Shown here: positions 10,349 to 60,619 of the stretch, one piece after another
Numbering within the stretch: the first letter of the stretch is position 1
How the letters are laid out: the number at the start of each line of letters is the position of its first letter
Assembly: GCA_018648225.1 (NCBI GenBank)
Contig: JABGRQ010000073.1
Span: forward strand, 26,064-90,063
Length of the DNA: 64,000 nucleotides
From: Chloroflexota bacterium
GTDB lineage: Bacteria; Chloroflexota; Anaerolineae; Anaerolineales; UBA11858
Direction: 5' to 3'
Notes under the pieces: generated by a model
Seen by the model: the letters and a program-made list of their open reading frames with translations, nothing else
Database searches by the model: none
What the model was told of the DNA's origin: nothing
Translations under genes and position numbers: made by a program

Positions 10349-10435
10349 AAATACGCAGTTCATTAGGAAATCGGTAAAAATAGGGGTGTAGGGTGTGCGG
10401 CGCATACCTTACACCCCTATTTTCCGGCTTTTTCT
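10349..10435 (+). repeat. Box-plus-GGGGTGT-hairpin element, copy A (candidate sRNA or leader)
   Basis: AAATACGCAGTTCATTAGGAA box (the 12-mer GTTCATTAGGAA is at 10358-10369), then the hairpin AAAATAGGGGTGTA..TACACCCCTATTTT (10377-10423), then CCGGCTTTTTC. Confidence 0.6.
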
Positions 10436-14585: not shown

Positions 14586-16297
14586 TGAAGCGGAAAACAA
14601 ACTTGCAGCGTTATCTAGTTGCTGCGCTGCTACTGGCCGGGGCATTGATATTTTACGCGCCGAATCGCATCGGGAAAGCTCAGGACGCGGGTTTGGGCAC
14701 TATTTTTGGCCGCGTACTGGACGAACAAGGGGTTGCGGTAGAAGGCGCAGAAGTTTCTCTGCTGGCCGACAGAAAAATCGCTGTGTTGCATACAACCACA
14801 CAAAGCGATGGCAGTTTTGCGTTGCACTTGAGCGCGCCCAATGACCCCACGGAATTTGACGAAGCTATCTATTTGCATATTGAGCGCCCTCACTTTAGCC
14901 CGGCAGAAATCGCTCTTGAATCCGCAGACTTGCAACAATTGAACGCCGGGGCGGCAGTCGAAATTCCAGATATAACGCTGGCACGCAAAATCAGTCTGGC
15001 GTTTTGGCTCGCTACGGTGATCTTCATCAGCATGCTGCTACTCATCGCCACCGACAAATTGCACAACACGCTGGCCGCGCTGGTCGGCGCGTCGCTGGTG
15101 CTCATCATCAGCTATTTGGGGCATCCGATCTCGGAAAATCTGTATATTTTCGATTTCACCGACTCGCTCAAATATATCGACTGGAATGTGATCTTCCTGA
15201 TCATGGGTATGATGATCGTGGTCGCTGTAGTGGAAAACACGGGTATTTTCCAATGGCTGGCCTTTTTTGCCTACCGTGCTTCGCGGGGCAATGTGTATAT
15301 TTTGCTCGCCATTCTCATGCTCATCGCCGGGGTGGCTTCGGCCTTCCTCGATAACGTCACCACCATGCTGCTGATGACCCCCATCACCATTCAGATCGCC
15401 ATTTCGATGGGCATCAATCCGCTGGCCTTTTTGCTCCCCGAAGTCATGGCTTCCAACGTCGTTGGCATCAGTACGCTCATCGGCACGCCTACCAATATTC
15501 TCATTGGCTCGTATGCCGATATTTCTTTTAGTGAATTTTTAACCAATCTCACCCCCGGCGTATTGATGGCTTTCATCGGGCTGATTATATACAGCCTGCT
15601 GATCTACAAAAAAGAGTTGGTCGCTGCCAGCGAAGCTTCGCCTATGCTCTTAGAGCATCTTGCCGAGCGGGGACGCATCACCCAGCCGGAACACCTGAAA
15701 AAAGCGGGGTGGGTCGGTTTGGGGATGTTGCTGCTATTCATCTTTGGCGAGAAAATTCACCTGCTCCCCGCGGTGACGGCGCTTGTTGGCGCGACAACGC
15801 TCATGGTATGGATCAAACCCGATATCGAAGAAATGATCGAAGCCGTAGACTGGACGACGCTGGTATTCTTCATGGCCCTGTTCATGGTTGTGGGCGCCAT
15901 TCAAGAAGTCGGCCTGATTAGCTATATTGCCGTATTCATTGGGCAGCTGGTGGGCGAAAATCTTGTATTGGCGATGATTGCAGTCACCTGGTTGAGCGCC
16001 ATCCTTTCGATGGTGATCGCCAATATCCCCTTTACGGCAGCCATGCTGCCCGTGGTTGGGTTTCTCACCACAACCGTTCCTGGCGCAGAGAGCAAAGTAC
16101 TGTTTTTCTGTCTCTCGGTGGGTTCGGCAATGGGTGGCAACGGCTCGTTAATTGGTGCTTCAGCCAATATGATTGCATCAGGCATCGCCGAGCGCGCCGG
16201 ATACTCGATCAGTTATATGTATTTCCTTAAAAAAGGACTTCCCGCCTTGCTGATCACCGTCGGCCTGGCGATGTTGTGGTTGTTGATTAAGTTCTAA
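14585..16297 (+). CDS. ArsB/NhaD-superfamily (SLC13/YbiR-like) permease with an N-terminal exported CarboxypepD_reg-like domain
   Basis: Signal sequence plus GTIFGRVLDEQGVAVEGAEVSLL...SDGSFAL (beta-sandwich pattern), then about 10 TM segments including FLDNVTTMLLMTPI and GTPTNILIG. Start overlaps the Usp stop (TAATG). Confidence 0.8.
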   Translation: MKRKTNLQRYLVAALLLAGALIFYAPNRIGKAQDAGLGTIFGRVLDEQGVAVEGAEVSLLADRKIAVLHTTTQSDGSFALHLSAPNDPTEFDEAIYLHIERPHFSPAEIALESADLQQLNAGAAVEIPDITLARKISLAFWLATVIFISMLLLIATDKLHNTLAALVGASLVLIISYLGHPISENLYIFDFTDSLKYIDWNVIFLIMGMMIVVAVVENTGIFQWLAFFAYRASRGNVYILLAILMLIAGVASAFLDNVTTMLLMTPITIQIAISMGINPLAFLLPEVMASNVVGISTLIGTPTNILIGSYADISFSEFLTNLTPGVLMAFIGLIIYSLLIYKKELVAASEASPMLLEHLAERGRITQPEHLKKAGWVGLGMLLLFIFGEKIHLLPAVTALVGATTLMVWIKPDIEEMIEAVDWTTLVFFMALFMVVGAIQEVGLISYIAVFIGQLVGENLVLAMIAVTWLSAILSMVIANIPFTAAMLPVVGFLTTTVPGAESKVLFFCLSVGSAMGGNGSLIGASANMIASGIAERAGYSISYMYFLKKGLPALLITVGLAMLWLLIKF

Positions 16298-16310
16298 AAT
16301 TAAAACTAAG

Positions 16311-16402
16311 GCCGCCAGGATGCAAAGGTGCAAAGAAAACGCTGTAAGTATGTTGCTGTTTTATCAAAGAACTTTGCGACTTTGTCCCTTTGCGCCCTGG
16401 CG
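16311..16402. repeat. Tandem-octamer hairpin element, copy E1 (GCAAAG type)
   Basis: Left arm CGCCAGGATGCAAAGGTGCAAAG. The reverse complement of the right arm is CGCCAGGGCGCAAAGGGACAAAGTCGCAAAG. AT-rich centre. Intergenic. Confidence 0.7.
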
Positions 16403-16423
16403 TTATAGCGTATAGGAAATCTC

Positions 16424-16885
16424 ATGTCCGAAAAAAACATTCGATCTATCATCTGTGCCGTGTACGGCAAACCCAGCAGCCGCGCCACCGTCACCCGTGC
16501 TATTAATCTGGCGCTGGAGCACAACGCCAAACTGACCTTTGTACACGCCATCAACGCCGAATTTTTAAAATCATCCGGCCCGTCAATGATGCCCCTGAAA
16601 ACCGTTTACAAACAGCTACACGATATGGGCAATTTTGCCATGCTGATGCTGATTGACCGCGCCGAACGCCGCGGTGTTTCGCAAGCTGCCTACCTGGTGC
16701 GCGAAGGTGATGTGCAAGCACAACTCCACAAAGCTGTTTTGGAACTGCGTCCAGATTTGCTGGTCATCGGCGAACCCACCACGGCTTTGGGCGAAGCGGC
16801 TTTCAAAAGCCAAAGCCTGAAAGAATTTATCCAACAGCTACAAGACGCTCTGCATATTCAAGTCGAAATCGTCGAACCCGAATGA
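16424..16885 (+). CDS. Universal stress protein (UspA family), second copy
   Basis: Usp-like pattern (IICAVYGKPSS ... DLLVIGEPT). Confidence 0.75.
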   Translation: MSEKNIRSIICAVYGKPSSRATVTRAINLALEHNAKLTFVHAINAEFLKSSGPSMMPLKTVYKQLHDMGNFAMLMLIDRAERRGVSQAAYLVREGDVQAQLHKAVLELRPDLLVIGEPTTALGEAAFKSQSLKEFIQQLQDALHIQVEIVEPE

Positions 16886-16955
16886 ACCGCGGATACACGC
16901 AGATAAACGCAGAAAAAAATAAAAATCAGCGTTCATCCGTACTTATCTGCGGTTC
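16884..16955. repeat. Tandem-unit hairpin element, copy E2 (CGCAGATAA type)
   Basis: GAACCGC...GCAGATAA on the left pairs with TTATCTGCGGTTC on the right. The centre is an A-rich run. Confidence 0.6.
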
Positions 16956-16973
16956 CATTTACGAATAGAAACT

Positions 16974-17888
16974 ATGACTACCACAGCACTCATCGTTATT
17001 TTACACGAACCCAAATTACTCTCGAAACTCTTACGCGCCTGGAACCGTGCCAATGTCCCCGGTGTGACGATTTTACCCAGCATGGGTGGATTCCAGGCTC
17101 AGAAACAAGTGCGCCGCGGCGGATTGGGCAGCCTGCTGAATATGTTCACCCCGGACGAACCCGGTCAGCGCACCCTGCTCAGCCTGATTGATGATCCTGA
17201 AACTTTGGAACGCGCCATCTCCGAAGCCGACCGCGTGGTCAAGGGCTTTGATAGCCCGCGCAGCGGCGTTCTCTTCACTATGCCCATTGATAACGTCATG
17301 GGCCTGCAAAAATGGCGGCATACGCCCCCCACCCAAGAGATTGAAGAACCTGAACAAAAAGAACCCTCCAATTTGTTGAAATGGTTCTACGAAGATGTCA
17401 AGGAAACCTACGGGCGTGATGCCCTCTCTGATAGGAGCAGCCAACGTCAATTGCAGGTCGGCGAAATCATTCACACCCTCGATCTGGACCCTATCATCGT
17501 GCGTGTGGATACGCCCATCGGTGAAATCCTGCCCCGAATGCTTGAAAATTCTACGGTTTCTATGGCCTGCGTGGTCAACACCGAGCAACGGCTTATGGGC
17601 ATTATCCCCATCGCCACCCTTGCCGAAGTATTGCTCGCCCCAATTGTCCCCGAAGCCTTTGTGGATGAATCCGACGGTTATAACAAAGCGTTGCAATACT
17701 CCGCCCCCAATATCAATTTGCTCGCCGCCGACATTATGGACGAGCCGGTTTACGCTCACACCACTGCCGATCTGGCTGAAACCTATCAGCGCATGAAAGA
17801 ACACAATCTTAGTGAGTTGCCCGTGGTTGATCCGTTTTATCATGTCATGGGCCACATCACCCTGCTCGAAATTTTGGCAAGGCTTTGA
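16974..17888 (+). CDS. CBS-pair protein with an N-terminal PII-like (beta-alpha-beta x2) domain
   Basis: Two CBS motifs in the C-terminal half (IIVRVDTPIGEILPRM...GIIPIATL; IMDEPVYAHTTADLAETYQRM...GHITLLEIL). The PII-like call on the N-terminal 110 aa rests on secondary-structure pattern only. Confidence 0.7.
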   Translation: MTTTALIVILHEPKLLSKLLRAWNRANVPGVTILPSMGGFQAQKQVRRGGLGSLLNMFTPDEPGQRTLLSLIDDPETLERAISEADRVVKGFDSPRSGVLFTMPIDNVMGLQKWRHTPPTQEIEEPEQKEPSNLLKWFYEDVKETYGRDALSDRSSQRQLQVGEIIHTLDLDPIIVRVDTPIGEILPRMLENSTVSMACVVNTEQRLMGIIPIATLAEVLLAPIVPEAFVDESDGYNKALQYSAPNINLLAADIMDEPVYAHTTADLAETYQRMKEHNLSELPVVDPFYHVMGHITLLEILARL

Positions 17889-17937
17889 CAGCCCCTGACA
17901 GGCATGATACACTTCCCCGGTTTTGACAGGATTGCAT

Positions 17938-19041
17938 ATGAAAACCGTCGAATGGGATTTCACCACCCACAAACTCCAGATGATCGACCAACGGCTGCTC
18001 CCCGGAACATTTGAAGTAGCCGTTTTTGATGATTATCGCGCTGTTGCGCAGGCGATTACAGATATGGTTGTGCGCGGCGCACCGGCGATTGGCGCAGCAG
18101 CGGGATTCGGCTTGGCGTTGGCTGCCATTCAATCGGGCGCAACCACTCCCGAGGGCTTACTCACCGATCTAAAATCTGCCGCCGACCTGCTCAAAAAAGC
18201 TCGCCCTACCGCTGTCAACCTGGCCTGGGCGTTGGATCGTATCTTGAATTCCCTCACCCAAACCCTCTCCCAGGGGGAGAGGGGGCAACTAAGTCCCCTC
18301 CCCCGGTGGGGGAGGGCGGAGGCTGGGGGAATTCTTGCGGATTTACGCGCCGCCGTTCTCACCGAAGCCCAACGCATCGCCGATGAAGATGTTGAAATCA
18401 ACCAGCGCATGGCACGTCATGGCGCAGAACTCATTGAAGACGGCGATACGATCATTCATCACTGCAACACAGGCGCGCTAGCGACTGTTGATTGGGGCAC
18501 CGCCTTGGGCGTGATCCGTTTGGCACATGAACAGGGCAAGCGCATCCACGTTCTCGTCGATGAGACTCGCCCGCGCCTGCAAGGCTCACGTCTGACGGCC
18601 TGGGAACTCACCCAATACGGCATCCCCTACGACATCATCAGCGATAACGCCGCCGGGCATTTCCTCAGCAGCGGGCAAGTGGATAAAGTCTTCGTCGGCT
18701 CCGACCGCACCGCCGCCAACGGCGATGTGTGCAACAAAATTGGCACTTATATGCTGGCACTGGCTGCCTACGATAACGGCGTACCTTTCTACCCCGTGGT
18801 ACCCACCTCGACGATTGACATGACACTCGCCACCGGGGCAGAAATCCCCATCGAAGAACGCACTCAAGCCGAAGTTCTGTCGCTAACCTTCCAGGGGCAG
18901 GCTGCATTCCCCGAAGGCGCCTCGGCACGCAATCCAGCTTTCGATGTCACACCGCACAGGCTTGTTACGGGCATCGTGACTGAAAACGGGGTGGCGTATC
19001 CCCCATTCATAACAAATCTCGCACCTTTGGTAAAACGTTAA
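17938..19041 (+). CDS. mtnA: S-methyl-5-thioribose-1-phosphate isomerase
   Basis: MtnA/eIF-2B-related motifs (VVRGAPAIGAAA, RPTAVNLAWAL, HHCNTGALAT, VDETRPRLQG, GSDRTAANGD, NKIGTY). Carries an in-frame insertion of about 25 aa. Confidence 0.9.
   Translation: MKTVEWDFTTHKLQMIDQRLLPGTFEVAVFDDYRAVAQAITDMVVRGAPAIGAAAGFGLALAAIQSGATTPEGLLTDLKSAADLLKKARPTAVNLAWALDRILNSLTQTLSQGERGQLSPLPRWGRAEAGGILADLRAAVLTEAQRIADEDVEINQRMARHGAELIEDGDTIIHHCNTGALATVDWGTALGVIRLAHEQGKRIHVLVDETRPRLQGSRLTAWELTQYGIPYDIISDNAAGHFLSSGQVDKVFVGSDRTAANGDVCNKIGTYMLALAAYDNGVPFYPVVPTSTIDMTLATGAEIPIEERTQAEVLSLTFQGQAAFPEGASARNPAFDVTPHRLVTGIVTENGVAYPPFITNLAPLVKR
18263..18316. repeat. Twin GC-rich mini-hairpins inside mtnA
   Basis: CCCTCTCCC-AGG-GGGAGAGGG (18263-18283) and CCCTCCCCC-GGT-GGGGGAGGG (18296-18316). 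The second stem recurs at 42640-42660. Confidence 0.8.
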
Positions 19042-19044
19042 AAA

Positions 19045-19099
19045 TTGAAGGTTGAAAGTTGAACGTTAAACCTGTAACCTTCAACTTTCAACCCTGAAG
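19045..19099. repeat. Tandem-octamer hairpin element, copy E3 (TTGAAAG type)
   Basis: GGTTGAAAGTTGAA / TTCAACTTTCAACC is a 14-bp perfect core. It lies between the mtnA stop and the RBS of the next gene. Confidence 0.7.
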
Positions 19100-19107
19100 A
19101 GGAACAT

Positions 19108-20064
19108 ATGGATATTGTATTAACTGGCTCCGTCGCCTACGACTACCTGATGACCTTCCCCGGTCTCTTCAAAGATCACTTTCTGCCCGAAAAGCTGGAT
19201 TCGATCAGCCTATCGTTTCTCGTTACTTCAATGGTGCGTCACCGCGGCGGAATTGCGCCCAATATTGCCTACACCCTGGCGCTGCTCGGCGGCAAGCCGC
19301 GCGTCATGGCCACCGTTGGCGAAGATTTTTCCGATTACCGCTCTTTTCTTGAAACTGCGGGCGTAGACACCAAACTGATGAAAGTTGTCGAAGGCAAATT
19401 CACGGCTTCGTTTTTCGCCAACACGGATGAATCCAACGCCCAGATTGCCAGTTTTTACCCCGGGGCCATGGATCACGCCGGGGAGTTGTCTTTTCACGAC
19501 CTCGCGAACCAACCCGATTTGGTGGTTGTCTCGCCCAATGCCCCCGATGCGATGGTGCAATATCCCGTCGAGTGTCAGGCCCTCGGCATTCCCTATCTTT
19601 ACGATCCCAGCCAGCAAATTCCGCGCATGAGCGGTGAAGATTTGCGCGCCGGTGTGGAGGGCTGCTGCGCCCTGATGGTTAACGACTACGAATTTGAATT
19701 GGTCAAGAAAAGCACCGGGATGAGCGAAGCTGAAATTTTGGGTGGCCGCGCCTTCACAGTAGTGACGCGTGGCAAAGATGGGGCTTCTATTTACGTGGGC
19801 GACGAAGAGATTCGCACCCCCGTGGTGACTCCTGCTCAAATCGCCGACCCCACCGGCGTGGGCGACGCCTTCCGCGGCGGTTTCCTGACGGGTTATTCTC
19901 ACAGCCTCGATTGGGAAATCTGCGGTAAAATTGGCGCTTTGGCGGCCACATATTGCCTGGAATCTAAAGGCACCCAAGAACACAGTTTCACCCCCAAAGA
20001 ATTCATAACGCGCTTCCGTGAACATTTTGATGATGATGGCGCGTTGGATGTATTAATTCGTTAA
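19108..20064 (+). CDS. PfkB-family carbohydrate/nucleoside kinase (adenosine kinase-like)
   Basis: PfkB signature DPTGVGDAFRGGF near the C-terminus and an N-terminal GSVAYD motif. Confidence 0.85.
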   Translation: MDIVLTGSVAYDYLMTFPGLFKDHFLPEKLDSISLSFLVTSMVRHRGGIAPNIAYTLALLGGKPRVMATVGEDFSDYRSFLETAGVDTKLMKVVEGKFTASFFANTDESNAQIASFYPGAMDHAGELSFHDLANQPDLVVVSPNAPDAMVQYPVECQALGIPYLYDPSQQIPRMSGEDLRAGVEGCCALMVNDYEFELVKKSTGMSEAEILGGRAFTVVTRGKDGASIYVGDEEIRTPVVTPAQIADPTGVGDAFRGGFLTGYSHSLDWEICGKIGALAATYCLESKGTQEHSFTPKEFITRFREHFDDDGALDVLIR

Positions 20065-20073
20065 GGAGAAAAA

Positions 20074-21492
20074 ATGTTAGACACTGTATTGAAAGAAACA
20101 ACGACTGATTATTATGTGGCAGATATGTCACTTGCCGAATGGGGTCATAAAGAGATCGCCATTGCCGAAAAAGAAATGCCCGGTTTGATGACCTTGCAGA
20201 AAAAATATGGCCAGGCAAAACCCTTAGCTGGCGCGCGGATTGCAGGCTCACTGCATATGACCATCCAGACCGCTGTGCTGATAAAAACACTCGTCAAATT
20301 GGGCGCAGATGTGCGCTGGGCTTCCTGCAATATCTTCTCCACGCAGGATCACGCAGCCGCCGCGGTTGCTGATCTGGGTATCCCCGTTTTTGCTTATAAA
20401 GGCGAAAATCTGGACGAATACTGGGAGTTCACCCACCGCATCATGGAATGGGCAGACGGCGGCACCCCCAATCTCATTTTGGACGATGGCGGCGATGCTA
20501 CCCTTCTTGTAATTCTTGGCTCCAATGCCGAAAAAGACCCCTCCGTGCTGGATAATCCCGGCAGCGAAGAAGAAGTTGCCCTCTTCACTGCCATCCGCAA
20601 ACGCCTGAGCGAGAAACCCGGCTGGTACGGCGAACGTCTCGAAGCCATTCAGGGTGTCTCTGAAGAGACTACCACTGGTGTACATCGCCTCTATCAACTC
20701 TTTGAAGAGGACAAACTCCCCTTCCCCGCTTTCAATGTCAACGATTCTGTCACTAAATCTAAATTTGACAATCTTTATGGCTGCCGCGAATCGCTCGTGG
20801 ATGGCATCAAACGCGCCACCGACGTCATGATCGCTGGCAAGATCGCCGTTGTGCTTGGTTATGGTGATGTTGGTAAAGGCAGCGCCCAGTCTTTGCGCGG
20901 TTTGGGTGCCACTGTCTGGATTACAGAAATTGATCCCATTAACGCCTTGCAGGCAGCGATGGAAGGGTATCGCGTTGTGCGTATGGATGAAGTATGTTCG
21001 CAGGCTGATATTTTCGTCACCGCTACTGGCAACTTCCACGTCATTACCCACGATCACATGGCCCAGATGAAAGACGAAGCCATCGTCTGCAATATCGGTC
21101 ATTTCGACAACGAAATTGACGTTGCCAGCCTTGAACAGTACGAATGGGACGAAATCAAACCGCAAGTTGACCATATTATCTTCCCTGATGGCAAGAAAAT
21201 CATCTTGCTAGCAAAGGGACGCCTGGTTAACCTTGGTTGTGCCACGGGTCATCCCAGCTTTGTGATGTCCAACAGTTTCACCAACCAGGTTTTGGCGCAG
21301 ATGGAACTCTGGCAGAACAACGAGAAATATGAAAATCATGTTTACACGCTTCCCAAGAAATTGGATGAAGAAGTTGCCCGGTTGCACCTTGCAAAGATTG
21401 GCGTCAATCTGACCGAACTCTCAAAAGAGCAAGCCGACTATATTGGCGTTCACATTGAAGGGCCTTACAAACCCGATCACTATCGCTATTAA
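20074..21492 (+). CDS. ahcY: Adenosylhomocysteinase
   Basis: Canonical AhcY sequence ([66 protein letters not shown]). Confidence 0.95.
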
Positions 21493-21500
21493 ACCGTTAC

Positions 21501-21531
21501 AGGTTGAAGGTTGCAAGTTGAAAGTTAAGCC
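21501..21531 (+). repeat. Tandem TTGAAAG-type units, copy E4 (no inverted partner)
   Basis: AGGTTGAAGGTTGCAAGTTGAAAGTTAAG. 25 of 28 nt are identical to the left arm of E3. Confidence 0.65.
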
Positions 21532-21554
21532 CGTCGATTTCGGCGGGCTTTTTT
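21527..21554 (+). terminator. Rho-independent terminator after ahcY
   Basis: AAGCCCG ... CGGGCTT stem followed by TTTTTT. Confidence 0.6.
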
Positions 21555-21574
21555 AATGGTTTTCGTTGGTACAA

Positions 21575-21603
21575 TTCACATCCTGGATACATTTTTATAC
21601 AAT
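21575..21603 (+). promoter_or_regulatory. Candidate promoter of the ABC exporter gene
   Basis: TTCACA, a 17-nt spacer, then TACAAT. The predicted transcript start falls at the first base of hairpin E5. Confidence 0.4.
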
Positions 21604-21610
21604 GCTGAAG

Positions 21611-21679
21611 AACCACAAAGACTCAAAGTCACGAAGAAAACTTGATAGAAAACCTTTGTGTCTTCGTGACTGTGTGGTT
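21611..21679 (+). repeat. Tandem-octamer hairpin element, copy E5 (CACAAAG/CACGAAG type)
   Basis: Left arm AACCACAAAGACTCAAAGTCACGAAGA. The reverse complement of the right arm is AACCACACAGTCACGAAGACACAAAG. It ends 11 nt before the GGAGG RBS (21691-21695). Confidence 0.7.
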
Positions 21680-21699
21680 TACTTTTCTACGGAGGTCTT

Positions 21700-23646
21700 A
21701 TGGGCATGCACGGAGCTGGCTGGTGGGCTTACATCCGCCACGATGAGAAACAAGATCATACTAAAATCACTCGCGAGTTATTGCTGCGGGTTTGGGATTT
21801 TGCACAACCCTATCGCCAAGCTGTAATCGGCTTGCTGATTACTATTCTCTTAATTTCCAGTATCACGCTGGTTTCCCCGTTGCTATACCGCGATCTGATT
21901 GATAACGCCATCCCCAACGGCGATCTAACGCGCCTCAACTGGTTGGCTTTGGGCATGATCGGTGTGCCGCTTATAAATGGCGTGGTCGGCGTGTGGCAGC
22001 GGCGTTTGAATTCGGCGATTGGCGAGGGCGTCATCTACGATTTGCGCCGCGCCCTCTACGCCCATTTACAGCGCATGTCGCTGCGTTTCTTTACCCAAAC
22101 GCGCACCGGCGAGTTGATGTCGCGCCTCAACAACGATGTCGTCGGGGCACAGCGTGCCATCAGCAATATTCTCGTTTCGCTCGTCTCAAATCTGGTATCC
22201 GCGATCGTCACCCTGGGCATTATGCTGGCCCTGGAATGGCGGCTGACGCTGCTCGGGCTGGCGATTCTGCCGCTCTTCATCATCCCCGCACGGCGCATTG
22301 GGCGCATCTTGCGCCGCCTCAGTCGTCGCTCAATGGAGCTCAATGCCGAGATGAACGCATCCATGAACGAGACCCTCAATATCAGCGGAGCGCTGCTGGT
22401 CAAGCTCTTTGGGCGCGAGCAGCGCGAATATGACCGCTTCAGCCGTGACAGTGATTCCGTGCGCGATATCGGCGTGCGCTCGGCGGTAACCATGCACTGG
22501 TTCTTCATGTTACTGAGCGTAGTCAGTGCGGTGGGGTCTGCGGTGGTATTCTGGGTGGGTGGGCATCTGGTATTACGCGGCGAGTTCACTATCGGGACAA
22601 TTGTGGCTTTCGGCACCTATCTCACCCAGCTTTACAACCCGCTCATGGCCCTCACCAACGCCCAGATCGAATTCTCCCAGAGTATGGTCAGCTTTGAACG
22701 CGTTTTTGAAGTGTTGGATATTCCTGTGGAGATCGCCGAACGGACGAACGCCCGGCGCTTGACTCAGGTCAAAGGGCAGATTCAATTTGAAGATATTTCC
22801 TTCGCCTATGAGGGACTCGGCACCGAGAAGATCGGCCTGGACGAGATCGCCCGCTTCACCTGGTTCCGCGCCGATGAATCGCATCTCAAGCGCGGCAAAG
22901 AGAAGGCAGGCGAGGGGTCAGGTACCAGCCCCGAGGCAGGCGAGTCGCCCACCCAATGGGCGTTGCAAGACATCAATTTCAGCATCCAGCCCGGGGAGTT
23001 GGTTGCCCTGGTCGGTCCCAGCGGAGCGGGAAAATCTACCATCACCTATATGATTCCGCGGCTCTATGATCCCACCCACGGGCGCGTACGCATCGACGGG
23101 CAAGACATCCGAGGCCTAACCCTGAATTCGTTAGCCGAGAATATCGGCATGGTCACGCAGGAAACATACCTGTTCTACGAAACCCTCCGCGCCAACTTAT
23201 TGTATGCGCGGCCTGATGCCAGCGAAGCCGAAATGGTCGCTGCCGCCCAGGCCGCCAATATTCACGAACTCATCGCCGGGCTGCCCGATGGCTACGATAC
23301 GGTAGTTGGCGAGCGCGGCTACCGCCTGAGCGGGGGAGAACGCCAGCGTATGGCAATTGCGCGCGTCATTTTGCGCGATCCGCGTATTCTGGTGCTCGAT
23401 GAAGCCACCTCCAGCCTGGATTCACTCTCGGAGGAGTTAATTCAGCACGCGTTGCAAAAGGTTATGCGAGGCCGCAGCAGCCTGGTGATTGCTCACCGGC
23501 TTTCCACCATTCTGGCTGCCGACAAAATTCTAGTGCTCGATGGCGGACGATTGGTGCAACAAGGCAATCACGAAGAATTGCTCATACAAGGCGGTTTGTA
23601 TAAAACCCTGTACGAGACACAGTTTAAAGTAGATCCTGCACAATAG
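21700..23646 (+). CDS. ABC exporter, fused permease and ATPase (MsbA/type-1 exporter fold)
   Basis: Six TM helices, then Walker A GPSGAGKST, signature LSGGERQR and Walker B ILVLDEATS. Confidence 0.9.
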   Translation: MGMHGAGWWAYIRHDEKQDHTKITRELLLRVWDFAQPYRQAVIGLLITILLISSITLVSPLLYRDLIDNAIPNGDLTRLNWLALGMIGVPLINGVVGVWQRRLNSAIGEGVIYDLRRALYAHLQRMSLRFFTQTRTGELMSRLNNDVVGAQRAISNILVSLVSNLVSAIVTLGIMLALEWRLTLLGLAILPLFIIPARRIGRILRRLSRRSMELNAEMNASMNETLNISGALLVKLFGREQREYDRFSRDSDSVRDIGVRSAVTMHWFFMLLSVVSAVGSAVVFWVGGHLVLRGEFTIGTIVAFGTYLTQLYNPLMALTNAQIEFSQSMVSFERVFEVLDIPVEIAERTNARRLTQVKGQIQFEDISFAYEGLGTEKIGLDEIARFTWFRADESHLKRGKEKAGEGSGTSPEAGESPTQWALQDINFSIQPGELVALVGPSGAGKSTITYMIPRLYDPTHGRVRIDGQDIRGLTLNSLAENIGMVTQETYLFYETLRANLLYARPDASEAEMVAAAQAANIHELIAGLPDGYDTVVGERGYRLSGGERQRMAIARVILRDPRILVLDEATSSLDSLSEELIQHALQKVMRGRSSLVIAHRLSTILAADKILVLDGGRLVQQGNHEELLIQGGLYKTLYETQFKVDPAQ

Positions 23647-23770
23647 CGCTTATACTGGGCAGGAGTTCTCGCTTGCGATCGCAAAAAACCTGCAAATATG
23701 AGCATTTATTAATAGCTACAGAAATACCAACAACGCATGATACAATCCGGTGGAAATTCTGATTAGAACT

Positions 23771-23850
23771 TACGCAGTTCGCTAAAATATGTGCCGAAAA
23801 TAGGGGTGTGTTGGGCGCGAAGCGCCCAACACACCCCTATTTTCGGGTTT
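23771..23850 (+). repeat. Box-plus-GGGGTGT-hairpin element, copy B (candidate sRNA or leader)
   Basis: TACGCAGTTCGCTAAAAT box, then the 23-bp perfect stem GAAAATAGGGGTGTGTTGGGCGC-GAA-GCGCCCAACACACCCCTATTTTC. TGATACAAT lies at 23738-23746. Confidence 0.6.
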
Positions 23851-23889
23851 TGCCTGCGCAAGTCCTGCTTATAAAATTAGGAGATACAA

Positions 23890-25203
23890 GTGAAACAACA
23901 TTCTCAAAAGTTTAGTTGGCTGCTCATCGCAGCTTTGCTCCTTACCGCACTGACAGCCTGTCAGGCCGAAGAAGCTCCCGCAGCAACCGAAAGCGCCGAG
24001 ATCGAATCCATCCCCGCTGAAGAAGATGTAGTACCCACCATCGAAAGCGCCGTAACCTTCTTCACCGGCGATGCCACGCCTGTCCCCGAACCAATTGTGC
24101 TCGAAGGCGCCCTGGTCACCGAAAGCGGCCTGCAATACCTTGAAATTAGCGCTGGCGAGGGAGATACCCCACAAGCCGGGGATATTGTCACGATGGAAGT
24201 CGTTGGCAACCTGGCAGATGGCACCGAACTCGTCAACACATACGCGCAAGGCACGCCTGCAATTGCTATTCTGGGGCGCGAGCAACTGCTGCCCGGTTGG
24301 GAAGAAGGCATTATGCTGATGCAGGTTGGCGGCAGCGCGCAGCTTGTGCTGCCGCCTGAGTTGGCCTTTGGCGAAGAAGGCTACGGCATGATCCCGCCCA
24401 ACACGGAACTTATCATGGAAGTCACGCTAATTTCTGTTGAAGCGCCTCCTGTCCCCAGCGAAGTCGCAGCCGATGAAATGGTGGCTACCGAAAGCGGTTT
24501 GCAATACTACGATCTGGTTGAAGGCGACGGCGAAGTTGCCGAAGCCAACAGCAACGTTACCACCAACTACACCCTCTGGGTGCAAGGCGAAGAAGAAAAT
24601 ACCTTCATTGTTTCCTCCGATGGCAGCCAGCCCGTCTCGTTTGTGATTGGCCGCGGCGATGTCGTCTTCCCCGGCTGGGATGAAGGCGTTACCGGCATGA
24701 AGAGCAATGGCAAGCGCCTGTTGGTCATTCCCCCCGATCTAGCACTCGGCGAAACGGGTTCAGGCGAAATTCCTGCCAATGCCACGCTTATCATGGAAAT
24801 CGAACTCCTTGATGTCTTCAACCCGCCAACAATCACCGAGATTGACCCCGAAGAATTCACCACTACCGAGAGCGGCTTGCAATACTACGATATTATCGCC
24901 GGTGACGGTGCCACCCCCGAAGCCGGGCAAACTGTGGTCGTCCACTACACCGGCTGGCTCGCCGATGGCACCATGTTCGATAGCTCCCTTACCCGCGGCG
25001 AACCCTTCTCCTTTGTGCTGGGCGATGGTTATGTCATTGCAGGTTGGGATGAAGGTGTAGCCACGATGCAAGTCGGCAGCACGCGCCAACTGATTATCCC
25101 GTCTGATCTGGCCTATGGCGAAAATGGCGCGGGCGGTCTGATTCCACCCGATGCTACCCTGGTCTTTGAAGTCGAACTACTCGAAATTCAAGAATCCGAA
25201 TAA
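23890..25203 (+). CDS. FKBP-type peptidyl-prolyl isomerase lipoprotein with three tandem FKBP domains
   Basis: Lipobox LLTALTAC. Three repeats of ESGLQY...G.G..P..G..V...Y.G.L.DGT.F.......P..F..G.G.VI.GW. GTG start after AGGAG. Confidence 0.9.
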   Translation: MKQHSQKFSWLLIAALLLTALTACQAEEAPAATESAEIESIPAEEDVVPTIESAVTFFTGDATPVPEPIVLEGALVTESGLQYLEISAGEGDTPQAGDIVTMEVVGNLADGTELVNTYAQGTPAIAILGREQLLPGWEEGIMLMQVGGSAQLVLPPELAFGEEGYGMIPPNTELIMEVTLISVEAPPVPSEVAADEMVATESGLQYYDLVEGDGEVAEANSNVTTNYTLWVQGEEENTFIVSSDGSQPVSFVIGRGDVVFPGWDEGVTGMKSNGKRLLVIPPDLALGETGSGEIPANATLIMEIELLDVFNPPTITEIDPEEFTTTESGLQYYDIIAGDGATPEAGQTVVVHYTGWLADGTMFDSSLTRGEPFSFVLGDGYVIAGWDEGVATMQVGSTRQLIIPSDLAYGENGAGGLIPPDATLVFEVELLEIQESE

Positions 25204-25233
25204 GCGCAACCACAGGTGACAGTCACTTCATAG

Positions 25234-26637
25234 GTGATTGTCACCTGTCACACTCTTTCTGTGGAAATTCCAGCCGAGTTTCTGGCACGCATAAAAAATC
25301 AATTGGGGGATGAATTTGAAGCCTTTCTGGCTCATTACGATGAACCTGCCGAGATTGGTTTACGCGTCAACACACTAAAACTCATCCCCGCGGCTTTCGC
25401 TGAACGAACTCCTTTCAAGTTGGCACCTGTTCCCTGGGCGCCAGCCGGATTTTTAGTCGATTCCAGTGAACGCCCCGGCAAACACCCTTACCATACCGCC
25501 GGGCTATATTACCTGCAAGACCCTGCCGCAATGGCTGTGACCGAATTGCTCAATCCGCAGCCCGGCGAACGCATCCTCGATCTGGCTGCCGCGCCTGGGG
25601 GCAAAACTACCCATATTGCTGCCCGGATGCAAAACCGCGGTTTGCTGATCGCCAACGATCTGATGGCGCATCGCGCCCAAGTGCTGGCAAAAAATATCGA
25701 ACGCTGGGGGGCAACAAACACCGTCGTACTCAATGAGACCCCCGCACGGCTGGCAGCCCATTTTGGCGCTTTTTTCGACCGCGTTCTCGTCGATGCGCCC
25801 TGCTCGGGCGAAGGTATGTTCCGCAAGGAACCCGCCACCCGCAGCGACTGGATGCCCAAACTCGTCGAGAGTTGCGCCCTGCGTCAGGATACTATCCTCG
25901 CCGAGGCGGCTCTATTGGTGCGCCCTGGGGGAATATTAGTCTATTCCACCTGCACCTTCACCCCTACCGAAGATGAGGGCAGCATCGCCCGTTTTCTGAC
26001 CAAGCATCCCGAGTTCGAAATTGAATCCCCGCCGCGTTACCCCGGCTTTTCCCCGGGCCGCCCCGATTGGCTGGACGATGAGCATTTACAGAATCCAGCT
26101 TTGAAGCAATTAATACGCCTGTGGCCGCACAATGCGCCGGGTGAAGGTCATTTCATCGCCGTCCTGCGCAAAACAAGCGGGGAGGAGAATCCGCTTCGGG
26201 AGGCTCAGGCCACCCCGCCGGAGAACGCCGCGCGGCACGATTTCCAGCAATTCTGCACGCAAACCCTGCACCGGCAGCCCGATGAAACACACCTTTCCCA
26301 GCAAGGCGCATATATTTACACCCTGCCCGCAGGCTGCCCCGATCTACGCGGGCTACGCGTGGTTCACTGGGGCTGGTGGTTGGGGATAGCCAAGAAAAAC
26401 CGCTTTGAACCCTCACACGCTCTGGCAATGGGTTTACAACCCACTCAGATAAAAAACACTCACAATCTGGTCGTTGGCGATGCAGCCCTGGCCGCGTACC
26501 TGCGCGGCGAAGTGCTGTCATCACCCGGCGAGAATGGCTGGGTGATGCTCACCGTGGATGGCTTCCCGCTGGGGTGGGGAAAACGTGTGAACAATCGTAT
26601 CAAGCCACATTTGCCCAACTGGCTAAGACAGTTTTAA
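25234..26637 (+). CDS. RsmB/RsmF-like (NOL1/NOP2/Sun) RNA m5C methyltransferase
   Basis: SAM motif DLAAAPGGKT and catalytic Cys motifs DAPCSGEG and YSTCT. The start is uncertain; GTG 25261, after the 25212-25248 inverted repeat, is an alternative. Confidence 0.85.
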   Translation: MIVTCHTLSVEIPAEFLARIKNQLGDEFEAFLAHYDEPAEIGLRVNTLKLIPAAFAERTPFKLAPVPWAPAGFLVDSSERPGKHPYHTAGLYYLQDPAAMAVTELLNPQPGERILDLAAAPGGKTTHIAARMQNRGLLIANDLMAHRAQVLAKNIERWGATNTVVLNETPARLAAHFGAFFDRVLVDAPCSGEGMFRKEPATRSDWMPKLVESCALRQDTILAEAALLVRPGGILVYSTCTFTPTEDEGSIARFLTKHPEFEIESPPRYPGFSPGRPDWLDDEHLQNPALKQLIRLWPHNAPGEGHFIAVLRKTSGEENPLREAQATPPENAARHDFQQFCTQTLHRQPDETHLSQQGAYIYTLPAGCPDLRGLRVVHWGWWLGIAKKNRFEPSHALAMGLQPTQIKNTHNLVVGDAALAAYLRGEVLSSPGENGWVMLTVDGFPLGWGKRVNNRIKPHLPNWLRQF

Positions 26638-26716
26638 CGCAAGGCGCAGAGAAGCAAAGACACAAAGAAAAATATATGAAGAGTTTTGCGCCCTTGCACC
26701 CTTGTGCCTTTGCGTT
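26636..26716. repeat. Tandem-octamer hairpin element, copy E6 (GCAAAG/CACAAAG type)
   Basis: Left arm AACGCAAGGCGCAGAGAAGCAAAGACACAAAGAAAAA. The reverse complement of the right arm is AACGCAAAGGCACAAGGGTGCAAGGGCGCAAAA. Confidence 0.7.
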
Positions 26717-26739
26717 AAAAAACGTGTTAAAATCACCCC

Positions 26740-41278: not shown

Positions 41279-41358
41279 CACCACAAAGACACAATACCCC
41301 GAAGGGTACAGGCGGCACGAAAAAATGCCATCCTTTGAGTCTTTGTGCCTTCGTGGCG
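41279..41358. repeat. Tandem-octamer hairpin element, copy E7 (CACAAAG/CACGAAG type)
   Basis: Left arm CACCACAAAGACACAATACC. The reverse complement of the right arm is CGCCACGAAGGCACAAAGACTCAAAGG. It lies just upstream of the AGGAG RBS. Confidence 0.65.
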
Positions 41359-42550: not shown

Positions 42551-42573
42551 ACCCTTCCCCCAATGGGAGAAGG
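42551..42573. repeat. GC-rich mini-hairpin (type 1)
   Basis: CCCTTCCCC-CAATG-GGAGAAGGG, similar to 18263-18283. Confidence 0.6.
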
Positions 42574-42582
42574 GAACAAAGA

Positions 42583-42633
42583 ACGCAAAAAAGATGAGTC
42601 GCTGTAAAATACAGCGACTCATCTTTTTTGCGT
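42583..42633. terminator. Bidirectional terminator, 24-bp perfect hairpin between convergent genes
   Basis: ACGCAAAAAAGATGAGTCGCTGTA-AAA-TACAGCGACTCATCTTTTTTGCGT. Confidence 0.6.
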
Positions 42634-42639
42634 CAATCT

Positions 42640-42660
42640 CCCTCCCCCGGCGGGGGAGGG
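42640..42660. repeat. GC-rich mini-hairpin (type 2)
   Basis: CCCTCCCCC-GGC-GGGGGAGGG. The stem is identical to the one at 18296-18316. Confidence 0.7.
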
Positions 42661-45194: not shown

Positions 45195-45268
45195 ACCACG
45201 AAGACACAAAGTCACGAAGATAAAAGGAAGAGATTTTTATCTCTTTGTGTCTTCGTGTCTTTGTGGTG
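45195..45268. repeat. Tandem-octamer hairpin element, copy E8 (CACGAAG/CACAAAG type), intercistronic
   Basis: ACCACGAAGACACAAAGTCACGAAGA on the left. The reverse complement of the right arm is ACCACAAAGACACGAAGACACAAAGA. Mismatches fall only at the R position of each unit and one T/A. Confidence 0.75.
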
Positions 45269-46800: not shown

Positions 46801-46938
46801 AGATACCTCATCATGTCTCAATAAATTTTGACTGATTATCGGGTGATTATATCATGGGGATTCTGAAAAAAGATGCGTGTCTCGCCTATTTGGGCTGCAC
46901 AAGCTCGGAAACGGACGCGAAAAAAAACACCAAAAATA

Positions 46939-47991: not shown

Positions 47992-48046
47992 TCGTTCACT
48001 ACTCCCGTAAGAAAATTATTGGCTATTTGGGAATCGTCGGGGTTGC

Positions 48047-48128
48047 CCCCAGATATAGGGGTGTACGGGGTGCTTCGCACCCCGTACACCCCTATATCTG
48101 GGGAATGTCCCGCCAGTTCCTAATGAAC
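48047..48128 (-). repeat. Box-plus-GGGGTGT-hairpin element, copy C (candidate sRNA or leader)
   Basis: On the minus strand: GTTCATTAGGAA (48128-48117), then the 27-bp perfect stem CCCCAGATATAGGGGTGTACGGGGTGC and its complement (48103-48047). Confidence 0.6.
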
Positions 48129-48277
48129 CTGTATTTTACTTCATTCGGGCATTCAGCGCGCCTGTAATCTTGTAACCCTGAGCCGTGGCGCGTATTGTAT
48201 AATAAGCACAGACTCGAGCTATACGATTCCATGGCGGCATCACAAAGCAATTTAGTACACACTATTTTAGCAAAAAA

Positions 48278-58063: not shown

Positions 58064-58374
58064 ATTTTTATTGTCTCCTTCAAATTTTTGCGTACTCTGC
58101 ACTCCGCACCCCTCACCGATGCGAAGCGGAGTGCGGAACACGCAAACCAAAGGATAATTCCTGAATTATTTGTGCTTGCGCAAATCCAAACCTGCGCAGC
58201 AAGAAGTTCACAAAAAAGGGTGTGCATAGAGGGTGCTACCCCAATGCACACCCTTTTTTGTGTTTCTCCCACTATCAGCGAGAGCAATGATTTCAGTTTT
58301 TTTATTTTGGGAGAAGCTTTGATTTAGGAGCGGGCGGAAATCCGCCCGCTCCCGTAATCTCTTACATCCAAAAA

Positions 58375-60459: not shown

Positions 60460-60619
60460 TTTCCTTACTCCTCCATTTGGATTAGGTAAATGGGTTTGAT
60501 TTTTTTCGTACAGGTGTGTGTTCAGATTACAGTCTCAATCTTGGCAGGCACCACCTCCTTATGGGTTACACTATGCAGTAAATTTCTAGAACTTCAGGAT
60601 CTACTGTGAGAAATCTCAT

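What the first reader, a model, noticed from the sequence alone, without database searches (positions are those of the whole stretch)
16311..16955. Family of intergenic hairpins whose arms are tandem ~8-nt units (8 copies in the window)
Seen: eight loci share one design. Three of them are 16311-16402, 16884-16955 and 19045-19099. The other five are 21501-21531, 21611-21679, 26636-26716, 41279-41358 and 45195-45268. The left arm is 2-4 tandem units of about 8 nt ending in AAG or similar: CACAAAG/CACGAAG/ACTCAAAG in three copies, GCAAAG/ACAAAG in two, TTGAAAG/TTGAAGG in two, and CGCAGATAA in one. An A-rich or AT-rich centre follows, then the complementary units. The arms are imperfect, and mismatches concentrate at the variable R position of each unit, as in copy E8. 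Because the arms are themselves periodic, the stems can pair in more than one register. All copies are intergenic: two bracket the second Usp gene, one forms the predicted 5' end of the ABC exporter mRNA, and one lies between cistrons of the nucleoside importer operon. Inference: this is a REP/BIME-like or MITE-like structured repeat family. It could act as an mRNA stabiliser or processing site, or be a target of an unlinked REP-associated transposase. I do not recognise it as a named family.
Basis: partly seen in the sequence, partly recalled or inferred. Interest (0 to 1): 0.65.

Follow-up and report, generated by a model that had tools for sequence, protein, structure and literature searches.

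The report
Gene-less copies of a tiny transposon
Most of these intergenic hairpins are gene-less copies of a very widespread, apparently undescribed mobile element; its complete form is a roughly 475-bp transposon that carries one small nuclease-like gene between the same repeated 8- or 10-base units.

Summary
Seven of the eight loci fold as long imperfect hairpins whose arms are tandem 7-10-nt units. The eighth, 21501-21531, is a one-armed array in front of an ordinary terminator. Such periodic inverted repeats are far above chance (6 loci against 0.15 in shuffles).

The eight are not one family:
- Five have CRC-N-AAG octamer arms.
- One has CGCAGAT decamer arms.
- Two have GTTGAAR heptamers.

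The octamer arms recur in at least 13 bacterial phyla and in phage-like contigs. In other genomes the octamer and decamer arms bracket a 125-145-aa GxxExxY (PD-(D/E)XK, PF13366) gene, and each protein clade has its own unit type. Four such cassettes, about 475 bp each, carry perfect 8-bp target-site duplications, and one near-identical cassette sits at several sites. Gene-less hairpins also form within-genome families.

The variable unit positions are not complementary between arms more often than chance. What is conserved is therefore the unit, probably a protein-binding site, and not the stem.

The window's copies lack the gene, lack duplications and lack a U-tract. They sit only between co-directional genes.

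The logic resembles REP/RAYT or MITEs, but the partner protein is different. No Rfam family or paper describes it.

The parts
16311..16402 (.). Octamer-class hairpin (CGCAAAG/TGCAAAG variant) between the CitMHS transporter gene and the second Usp gene.
   Evidence: Fold dG -36.7, z -3.8. 5'-arm periodicity 0.69 at period 8. Pattern hits in both arms. The orthologous gap is 163 nt with a CGAAGG-unit hairpin in L128, 49 nt in L129 and 15 nt in L131.
16884..16955 (.). Decamer-class hairpin. The 5' arm is CGCGGATACA/CGCAGATAAA/CGCAGA and the 3' arm is ATCAGCG..ATCTGCGG. It overlaps the Usp stop codon.
   Evidence: Fold dG -28.2, z -6.7. TRF period 10. Periodicity 0.85. Arms of the same kind bracket a separate GxxExxY clade elsewhere.
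19045..19099 (.). Heptamer-class (TTGAAGG/TTGAAAG) hairpin between the IF-2B-like and PfkB genes.
   Evidence: Fold dG -22.6, z -5.2. Periodicity 0.86 at period 7. The orthologous gaps in L128 and L131 are 25 and 18 nt and hold no such hairpin.
21501..21531 (+). One-armed GTTGAAG/GTTGCAA/GTTGAAA array with no inverted partner, directly upstream of the ahcY terminator (21527-21550).
   Evidence: Unpaired in the fold. Terminator scan. An array at the same place is kept in L128 and L131.
21611..21679 (.). Octamer-class hairpin (CCACAAAG ACTCAAAG TCACGAAG ... CTTTGTG TCTTCGTG ACTGTGTGG) in the 5' leader of the ABC exporter gene.
   Evidence: Pattern hits at 21614-21636(+) and 21654-21676(-). Fold dG -23.6 in a shifted register. 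A promoter-like site lies at 21575-21603. Relatives have a hairpin at the same site with other units.
26636..26716 (.). Octamer-class hairpin (CGCAAGG/CGCAGAG/GCAAAG/CACAAAG units) between the RsmF-like and PD40/Tricorn-like genes. It starts at the stop codon.
   Evidence: Fold dG -28.5, z -4.6. Periodicity 0.75. L128 has an unrelated perfect G+C-rich hairpin at this site.
41279..41358 (.). Octamer-class hairpin (TCACCACAAAGACACAA ... CTTTGAGTCTTTGTGCCTTCGTGGCGA) upstream of the URO-D-like gene.
   Evidence: Pattern hits at 41333-41355(-). Fold dG -29.2, z -3.9. The terminal TCAC-CAC...GTG-GCGA matches the commonest ends of the class.
45195..45268 (.). Octamer-class hairpin (ACCACGAAGACACAAAGTCACGAAG ... 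CTTTGTGTCTTCGTGTCTTTGTGGT) between the ABC ATPase gene (45277-46821, -) and the permease gene (43926-45173, -).
   Evidence: Pattern hits in both arms. Fold dG -38.0, z -7.3. Gene identities. It aligns at about 79% with hairpins of other phyla, and the match is confined to the hairpin.

Best explanation
Six of the eight loci are gene-less (MITE-like or REPIN-like) members of a very widespread family of inverted-repeat mobile elements. They are the octamer class at 16311, 21611, 26636, 41279 and 45195, and the decamer class at 16884.

Anatomy of the family:
- Each arm is an array of two to four short units, C-R/A-C-n-A-A-G-r (8 nt) or C-R-C-A-G-A-T-n-n-n (10 nt), ending in ..CCAC / GTGG...
- In the complete element, about 475 bp, the two arms bracket one small gene for a GxxExxY protein (PD-(D/E)XK nuclease superfamily).
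- The complete element inserts with an 8-bp target-site duplication.

Shown:
- The arms are shared between the gene-less and gene-bearing forms.
- Protein clade and unit type go together.
- Gene-bearing cassettes carry target-site duplications and occupy several sites.
- Gene-less copies form within-genome families.
- Related genomes differ in presence or absence at orthologous sites.
- The variable unit positions show no base-pair covariation.

Inferred:
- The units are recognition sites for a protein, most likely the cognate GxxExxY protein supplied from elsewhere in the genome.
- The hairpin is a by-product of two unit arrays lying in inverted orientation.
- In this window the copies are passengers that survive only in spacers between co-directional genes. 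There they are transcribed into polycistronic mRNA as stable stem-loops and could serve as RNase III or exonuclease landmarks.

The two GTTGAAR loci (19045, 21501) belong to a looser, mostly one-armed class of heptamer arrays. I could not show a link between that class and the same system.
For: Distribution:
Most hits are CCAC..GTGG hairpins.
Two permuted-unit controls gave 24 and 33 loci.
- An inverted partner lies within about 200 nt for 45/137 and 61/145 octamer arrays, against 1/18 and 0/25 for the controls.

The partner gene:
- GxxExxY is the only ORF family that recurs next to the arms, in 5 of 120 loci.
- Starting from the protein, 51 of 76 genes have at least two strict period-8 units on both sides, and about 55 of 66 unique loci have inverted arms.
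- A clade only 35-37% identical is flanked by decamer arms. In 24 of 24 fetched members the arm units encode the first and last residues.
- Still more distant members carry other unit types.

Mobility:
- One cassette, 99.6-99.8% identical, sits in unrelated flanks.
- Perfect 8-bp duplications abut four cassettes: AAAAAGCA, CCATGGGC, CAATTTCT and AAATCAGC.
- Gene-less copies within one genome or contig are 88-95% identical including their loops, against 75-80% between genomes.
- One gene-less loop retains the first codons of the gene.

The window's lineage:
- Syntenic relatives show gaps of 9 against 318 nt, 66 against 25 and 18 nt, and 126 against 163, 49 and 15 nt. L131 holds both octamer and decamer hairpins where the window has none.

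Structure:
- There is no covariation: 87 of 246 Watson-Crick pairs against 85.5 +/- 7.1 on permutation.
- The window's true terminators have U-tracts and these hairpins do not.
Against: - No GxxExxY gene lies in the 64-kb window, and the rest of this genome could not be searched.
- None of the window's copies has a target-site duplication, and I found no clean duplication for any gene-less hairpin.
- The loops of the three CACRAAG copies in the window are unrelated, so these are not recent copies of one master.
- A 125-145-aa nuclease-fold protein has not been shown to bind the units or to transpose anything. Another transposase could move both forms.
- Only 1 of 117 gene-less loops shows a remnant of the gene, so most hairpins did not arise by recent deletion.
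- Different hairpins occupy the same intergenic sites in related species. That also fits a host need for a hairpin at those sites.
Confidence: 0.62

Rival explanations
1. The hairpins are host RNA elements that arise and turn over in place. They would be intercistronic stem-loops selected to stabilise upstream cistrons, to mark processing sites or to pause transcription. The periodic arms would come from slippage plus quasi-palindrome correction. The resemblance to GxxExxY cassettes would then be secondary, for instance because cassettes prefer to land in such hairpins.
For: - The same intergenic sites hold hairpins with different units in the window, L128 and L131: transporter|Usp2, Usp2|CBS, the exporter leader and RsmF|Tricorn.
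- The Usp2|CBS hairpins of the window and L128 share their outer bases, as if one had grown from the other.
- All copies lie in co-directional gaps, 0-13 nt after a stop codon, and leave about 20 nt for the next ribosome-binding site.
- Folding is strong.
- Only 1 of 117 loops shows a gene remnant.
- L383 has a second hairpin nested in the loop, so loops do accept insertions.
Against: - The variable positions show no covariation at all, and there is no G:U over A:C excess.
- The same unit sequence and the same CCAC/GTGG ends recur across at least 13 phyla and in phage-like contigs. Local slippage does not predict that.
- Permuted units are much rarer and almost never inverted.
- Cassettes carrying these arms have target-site duplications outside the arms.
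Confidence: 0.17
2. The eight loci are unrelated products of ordinary tandem-repeat slippage with chance inverted partners, and have no common system behind them.
For: - Arbitrary permuted 8-mers also occur as triple tandem arrays, in 24 and 33 loci of the viral collection.
- Many other unit types fill intergenic gaps in phage-like contigs.
- GTTGAAR arrays are mostly one-armed (4 of 47 inverted), and one window locus is one-armed.
Against: - For the octamer and decamer classes there is the cross-phylum recurrence, the conserved ends, the high inverted fraction, the cognate GxxExxY clades and the target-site duplications.
- Adjacent units differ at the free positions about half the time (83 of 164 the same). 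Fresh slippage would give identical neighbours.
Confidence: 0.1
3. They are classical REP/BIME elements, or REPINs, mobilised by a RAYT (an IS200/IS605-type Y1 transposase).
For: The general logic, a gene flanked by its own repeats, matches REP/RAYT (PMC3116915).
Against: - There is no GTAG or CGTC tag (PMC3733652).
- The arms are tandem units rather than a single 20-40-nt palindrome.
- The gene found between the arms is always GxxExxY and never a Y1 transposase.
- The 8-bp target-site duplications are not a feature of IS200/IS605-type single-strand transposition. This last point is from my own knowledge.
Confidence: 0.03
4. They are intrinsic transcription terminators or attenuators.
For: They are stable stems downstream of stop codons.
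Against: - None has a U-tract, whereas the window's real terminators have perfect stems with T-runs, often with A-runs as well.
- Several lie inside apparent operons, and one is in a 5' leader.
- None lies in a convergent gap.
Confidence: 0.04

Closest known systems
REP / REPIN elements with their RAYT transposase (PMC3116915, PMC3733652)
   Same: Both are dispersed extragenic palindromes, often between co-directional genes. In both, the presumed mobilising gene is itself flanked by the same repeats in inverted orientation, each protein clade has its own repeat type, and gene-less copies far outnumber gene-bearing ones.
   Different: The partner here is a GxxExxY PD-(D/E)XK protein and not an HUH/Y1 transposase. 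The arms are arrays of 8- or 10-nt units rather than one palindrome with a GTAG or CGTC tag. Gene-bearing copies make 8-bp target-site duplications. The distribution spans many phyla with the same unit.
MITEs and their autonomous parent transposons
   Same: Both have terminal inverted repeats with nothing coding between them and are small. Longer elements share the same ends and carry a gene, those longer elements show target-site duplications, and copies form within-genome families.
   Different: Copies share only the unit motif and the ends, and loops are mostly unrelated. No target-site duplication was seen on gene-less copies. The 'parent' is only about 475 bp, and its 130-aa product is not a known transposase.
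23S rRNA intervening sequences with an internal ORF, such as the Coxiella burnetii IVS with S23p (PMC4990558)
   Same: Both are a selfish small gene inside a long stem formed by inverted ends. The Coxiella stem carries three tandem heptamers, GACAGAT, just before the start codon, and their number varies between strains; this is close to the CRCAGAT units here. RNase III excises the stem-loop from the host RNA.
   Different: Those elements sit in helix 25 or 45 of 23S rRNA and encode a four-helix-bundle protein. The elements here lie in mRNA spacers, and their complete forms encode GxxExxY. I did not test four-helix-bundle genes for such arms.
Intergenic heptamer direct repeats: cyanobacterial STRR and TAACTGA repeats of Beggiatoaceae, Cyanobacteria and Bacteroidetes (PMC4679880)
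   Same: Both are two to six tandem 7-nt units in intergenic DNA, often just upstream of start codons, with a patchy cross-phylum distribution and no known mechanism. This is the closest match for the GTTGAAR loci (19045, 21501).
   Different: Those repeats are almost always direct and not inverted, have a different unit, and have no associated gene.
PeSL 'mobile regulatory cassettes' of T4-type phages (PMC2839356)
   Same: Stem-loops bracket small genes and mark the joints of modular gene exchange. Several phage-like contigs here carry tandem-unit hairpins in successive intergenic gaps.
   Different: PeSLs combine an early promoter with a stem-loop and are not built of tandem units. They show no target-site duplications and no GxxExxY gene.

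Membership tests
REP/REPIN-RAYT | A 20-40-nt imperfect palindrome with a conserved GTAG or CGTC tag at one end (PMC3733652). | tested here: not met
   Read directly from the sequences. No tag is present, the arms are tandem 7-10-nt units, and the elements are 55-92 nt long.
REP/REPIN-RAYT | An associated RAYT (IS200/IS605-like Y1 transposase) gene flanked by the repeats. | tested here: not met
   In related loci the flanked gene is GxxExxY/PF13366. No flanked gene exists in the window. The window's ORFs were not all scanned for a Y1 transposase.
REP/REPIN-RAYT | Extragenic location and high copy number (hundreds per genome). | tested here: inconclusive
   All copies are extragenic, and there are 7-8 in 64 kb. 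The genome-wide number is unknown because only the window and 20-kb metagenome loci are available.
MITE | Terminal inverted repeats, small size and no coding capacity. | tested here: met
   The elements are 55-92 nt and hold no ORF.
MITE | A target-site duplication flanking each copy. | tested here: not met
   The window's copies have none, and there is no clean case among gene-less hairpins. Gene-bearing cassettes do have perfect 8-bp duplications, four cases.
MITE | A longer element with the same ends that carries the mobilising gene. | tested here: inconclusive
   Cassettes with the same arms exist in other genomes, including Chloroflexota (L071, L083). None lies in the window. Transposase activity of GxxExxY is untested.
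MITE | Copies similar along their whole length. | tested here: not met
   The window's copies share only the units. Elsewhere, copies within one genome are 88-95% alike including their loops.
   Met for 16311, 16884, 21611, 26636, 41279 and 45195. Not met for 19045 and 21501.
   An HMM search of all six frames of the window found nothing with E below 1. The window's copies are gene-less.
Intrinsic terminator | A G+C-rich stem followed by a U-tract. | tested here: not met
   The terminator scan finds 21527-21550 but none of the hairpins apart from a trivial sub-stem. The tails are listed.
23S rRNA IVS-type element | Insertion in helix 25 or 45 of 23S rRNA and excision by RNase III. | tested here: not met
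   The window holds no rRNA, and the elements lie between protein-coding genes. RNase III cleavage cannot be tested with these tools.
STRR / TAACTGA-type heptamer arrays | Direct tandem heptamers in intergenic DNA, with no inverted partner. | tested here: met
   Met in form by 21501-21531. The unit sequence differs from TAACTGA and from the STRR units. 19045 has an inverted partner.
Any Rfam family | A match to a curated covariance model. | tested here: not met
   Only three tRNAs reach gathering score. The permissive scan of 16200-26800 gives only chance miRNA-like hits.

The most novel reading that the evidence does not exclude
GxxExxY cassettes are a new class of ultra-small autonomous transposons, about 475 bp. 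Their 125-145-aa PD-(D/E)XK protein would recognise arrays of 8- or 10-nt units at both ends, make 8-bp staggered target cuts, and also mobilise the far more numerous gene-less hairpins. On this reading the system has spread through most bacterial phyla and their phages. It would seed operon spacers with stem-loops, and it would also account for ORF-bearing intervening sequences of 23S rRNA.
Probability: 0.35. Interest if true: 0.9.

Novelty: new variant of a known kind. Interest (0 to 1): 0.78.

Why it matters
If this reading is right:
- A protein family with thousands of clusters and no known function (PF13366/TIGR04256) would gain a role.
- A class of intergenic hairpin seen from Chloroflexota to Bacteroidota, and in phage-like contigs, would gain an origin.
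- The long-puzzling ORF-bearing intervening sequences of 23S rRNA would have a plausible relative.

It would also be the smallest gene-carrying transposon known in bacteria, built around a nuclease fold instead of a DDE or HUH enzyme.

In practical terms, these hairpins are easily mistaken for terminators or regulatory RNAs. They confuse assembly and gene calling, because in one clade the arm units are translated into the protein's ends. They could also serve as markers of recent insertion in metagenomic populations.

Tried and rejected
- Rfam, at gathering and permissive thresholds: nothing relevant.
- Strain comparison: the six metagenome loci that carry the same Usp protein are 100% identical to the window, so they give no variation.
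- Gene-less hairpins as recent deletion derivatives of cassettes: rejected as a general origin. Only 1 of 117 loops (L142) matches a cassette end.
- Selection on an RNA stem: there is no covariation at the free positions in any register, and no G:U over A:C asymmetry in cassettes oriented by their gene.
- Target-site duplications on the window's copies and on gene-less hairpins: none are convincing. An apparent case in L189 is really a higher-order tandem repeat of hairpin plus spacer.
- Other minigene families between arms: a de novo search for genes enclosed by periodic inverted arms found only GxxExxY in the genome and metagenome loci. In phage-like contigs it found ordinary phage genes lying between separate complete hairpins.
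- The link of GTTGAAR arrays to GxxExxY: not found.
- Structure of GxxExxY: there is no relative in the PDB by sequence. The AlphaFold model from a shallow alignment was unusable (pLDDT 41), so I ran no fold search.
- My 'arm inside an ORF' measure is unreliable because stop-free stretches are common, and I discarded it.
- The four-helix-bundle (S23p) family could not be tested because I had no seed sequence.
- The literature: ten full-text searches found no description of these units or of GxxExxY cassettes.
Full report
**1. What is in the window**

The window is 100% identical to contigs from several marine metagenomes. The one copy of its Usp protein that carries a source name is labelled as a Chloroflexi MAG.

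Seven of the eight loci fold as long imperfect hairpins. Their dG ranges from -22.6 to -38.0 kcal/mol and z from -3.6 to -7.3 against dinucleotide shuffles. At 21501-21531 the GTTGAAG array stays single-stranded, and the only stem is the canonical terminator at 21527-21550.

The periodic arms are real:
- Tandem Repeats Finder reports period 10 at 16888, period 7 at 19037 and 21503, and period 8 at 26686 and 45242.
- The two-unit pattern CWCRAAGNCWCRAAG gives 10 hits against 0.25 expected.
- A generic detector (three units, inverted partner within 120 nt) gives 6 loci against 0.15 in shuffles.

I surveyed all 34 intergenic gaps of 40 nt or more. All other hairpins score 0.64 or less, and these are perfect stems flanked by A- and T-runs, which are this organism's real terminators.

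The periodic hairpins occupy 7 of 19 co-directional gaps and none of the 10 divergent or convergent gaps. They begin 0-13 nt after a stop codon and leave about 20 nt before the next start.

- Two hairpins bracket the second Usp gene.
- One follows a promoter-like site in the leader of the ABC exporter.
- One lies between the ATPase and permease genes of an ABC importer.

**2. Three classes, not one**

By unit the loci fall into three classes:
- An octamer class, C-A/G-C-n-A-A-G-r, at 21611, 41279 and 45195. The CGCAAAG-type variants at 16311 and 26636 belong with it.
- A decamer class, CGCAGATnnn, at 16884.
- A heptamer class, GTTGAAR, at 19045 and at the one-armed 21501.

**3. The octamer hairpin is found across bacteria**

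The hits come from Bacteroidota, Planctomycetota, Verrucomicrobiota, Acidobacteriota, Chloroflexota, Nitrospirota, Desulfobacterota, Pseudomonadota, Actinomycetota, Spirochaetota and others, and include isolates. Most are hairpins of the form ..CCAC-n-AAG (x3), loop, CTT-n-GTG (x3) GG...

Two permuted-unit controls gave 24 and 33 loci in complete scans.

An inverted partner lies within about 200 nt for 33-42% of octamer arrays. The figure is 0-6% for the controls, 9% for GTTGAAR and 0% for ACAGAT heptamers.

The window's copies have the commonest end tetranucleotides of the class, TCAC/GAAC/TTAC-CAC...GTG-GTGA/GCGA. The 45195 copy aligns at about 79% with hairpins from other phyla, and the match stops at the hairpin ends.

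No Rfam family matches.

**4. The gene that goes with the arms**

Among ORFs next to the arms in the 120 genome loci, only one family recurs. It is a protein of about 130 aa that matches TIGR04256 'GxxExxY protein' and Pfam PF13366 (PDDEXK_3).

I then started from the protein. Eighty metagenomic relatives, 61-85% identical, were fetched with their flanks.
- 51 of 76 have at least two strict period-8 units on both sides.
- About 55 of 66 unique loci have inverted arms.
- The layout is GCCAC-n-AAG x3, about 8 nt with a ribosome-binding site, ATG...stop, then 1-13 nt, then CTT-n-GTG x3 ..GTGGC.

A second clade, only 35-37% identical, is bracketed by decamer arms of the 16884 type. In 24 of 24 fetched members the first residues (MNTD/MNAD) and the last residues (..NISDNQRKSVAE) are translations of the arm units. 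One member sits snugly between two genes of a glycine-cleavage operon.

Still more distant members carry other unit types.

Protein clade and unit type therefore go together. That is the signature of specific recognition in REP/RAYT systems (PMC3116915).

The family is very large: more than 6,385 clusters at E of 1e-25 or better, from one query. It is essentially unstudied.

**5. Mobility**

Gene-bearing cassettes:
- One cassette, 99.6-99.8% identical over 476-480 nt, lies in unrelated flanks in L156, L160 and L161. The similarity stops 46-49 nt upstream and 40 nt downstream of the gene.
- Perfect 8-bp direct duplications abut the ends (GTAAC..GCCAC ... GTGGC..GTTAC) of four independent cassettes: AAAAAGCA, CCATGGGC, CAATTTCT and AAATCAGC.
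- Of six elements that fit the strict end pattern, three have an 8/8 match. The chance of that is about 1.5e-5 for each.

Gene-less hairpins:
- Within one genome or contig they are 88-95% identical including their loops (L068/L080, L383, L423, L356, L207). Between genomes the figure is 75-80%.
- One gene-less loop (L142) keeps the first codons of the gene, but 116 of 117 do not.

The window's lineage:
- Syntenic relatives whose Usp protein is 84%, 76% and 68% identical show presence, absence and replacement at orthologous gaps.
- L131 has a decamer hairpin and an octamer hairpin in a 318-nt gap. In the window that gap is 9 nt.

**6. What is conserved**

I took 82 gene-less hairpins with three units in each arm. 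The free position of each unit forms a Watson-Crick pair with its partner 87 times in 246. Permuting the arms among hairpins gives 85.5 +/- 7.1. The spacer position does no better than chance either.

The conserved entity is therefore the unit, C-A-C-n-A-A-G-r, and the CCAC/GTGG ends. The base pairs as such are not conserved.

This points to arrays of protein-binding sites in inverted orientation, that is, terminal inverted repeats with several sites. The hairpin is then a by-product.

It does not exclude a use for the stem. The Coxiella 23S intervening sequence has three GACAGAT heptamers at the base of its stem, just before its S23p ORF, and RNase III excises it there (PMC4990558).

**7. The heptamer class**

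Triple GTTGAAR arrays occur in 64 viral-contig loci. Most are one-armed. They often fill stop-to-start gaps, and sometimes sit next to arrays of other types or in the same contigs as octamer hairpins.

The one-armed array in front of the ahcY terminator is kept at the same place in three species.

I found no gene bracketed by these arms. The closest described phenomenon is the intergenic heptamer direct repeat, such as TAACTGA (PMC4679880).

**8. Verdict**

It is wrong about the partner, which is not a RAYT, and wrong about unity, since there are three classes.

The best reading is that six loci are gene-less members of a GxxExxY-associated transposon family that I could not find described. 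Which enzyme moves them, and whether the host uses the stems, remain inferences.

**Limits**
- The protein-side sample is biased towards close relatives of the query.
- The rest of this genome could not be searched.
- Gene calls in the window are my own longest-ORF heuristic.

Noticed in passing
window 10377-10423, 23794-23846, 48054-48096 (core of a 133-nt palindrome at 48009-48141), 58209-58262, 60619-60665: A second hairpin family. These are perfect 18-26-bp stems that share AAAATAGGGGTGT.. / ..ACACCCCTATTTT arms, with an A-run before and a T-run after, so they look like bidirectional terminators. The 23794 copy is kept in relatives L128 and L131 with compensatory changes.
   Followed up: partly
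window 42552-42660: A 109-nt composite palindrome (dG about -73 kcal/mol) in a convergent gap. A perfect 24-bp A/T-flanked stem is nested inside CCCTTCCCCC..GGGGGAGGG outer arms.
   Followed up: no
window 17885-17913, 21563-21574, about 23760; L128, L129 and L131 at the orthologous sites: Promoter-like boxes, TG(A/G)TACA(A/C)T, with conserved leader sequence are kept upstream of the IF-2B-like, ABC exporter and FKBP genes in relatives whose Usp protein is 68-84% identical.
   Followed up: partly
window 28558-28662: An 18-nt tandem repeat (ACCCTCACCCCCACGCCA, about 3.7 copies, followed by a related array) lies inside the 3' part of the PD40/Tricorn-like gene. It probably encodes a Pro/Thr-rich linker.
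   Followed up: no
L267/L278, L276, L309, L348, L352, L433, L444 (IMG/VR contigs): Phage-like contigs carry tandem-unit hairpins in successive intergenic gaps, so that ordinary structural genes are bracketed by them. Each contig uses its own unit, for example AATTGAC, GAAAATG, CGCAGATGGA, CACGGAACA or AAATCTC.
   Followed up: partly
L383 959-1082 and 4848-4971: Two copies of a nested element: a GGTTCAA/TGAACGG heptamer hairpin sits inside the loop of an octamer hairpin. The inner part differs by one base between the copies, but the outer arms differ at many free positions and in unit order. Either the arms turn over faster than the loops, or the loops are insertion targets.
   Followed up: partly
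L148 186-615, L448 1180-1640, proteins P0017-P0136: In the decamer-arm GxxExxY clade the start codon and the last dozen or so codons are encoded by the arm units themselves (MNTD.., ..NISDNQRKSVAE). The repeat units are therefore translated, and they explain the odd conserved termini of these proteins.
   Followed up: yes
L160 versus L161: The two loci have an identical cassette and an identical 400-nt right flank but unrelated left flanks, and L160 has no target-site duplication. This is either recombination between two copies or a chimeric assembly at the repeat.
   Followed up: no
L024, L045, L113, L326: Long pure tandem arrays of the same units, such as (GGCACGAAG)n, (CTTTGTGC)n and (GGTTGAA)n, run to 16 or more copies without an inverted partner. 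They show that the units can also expand as simple satellites.
   Followed up: no
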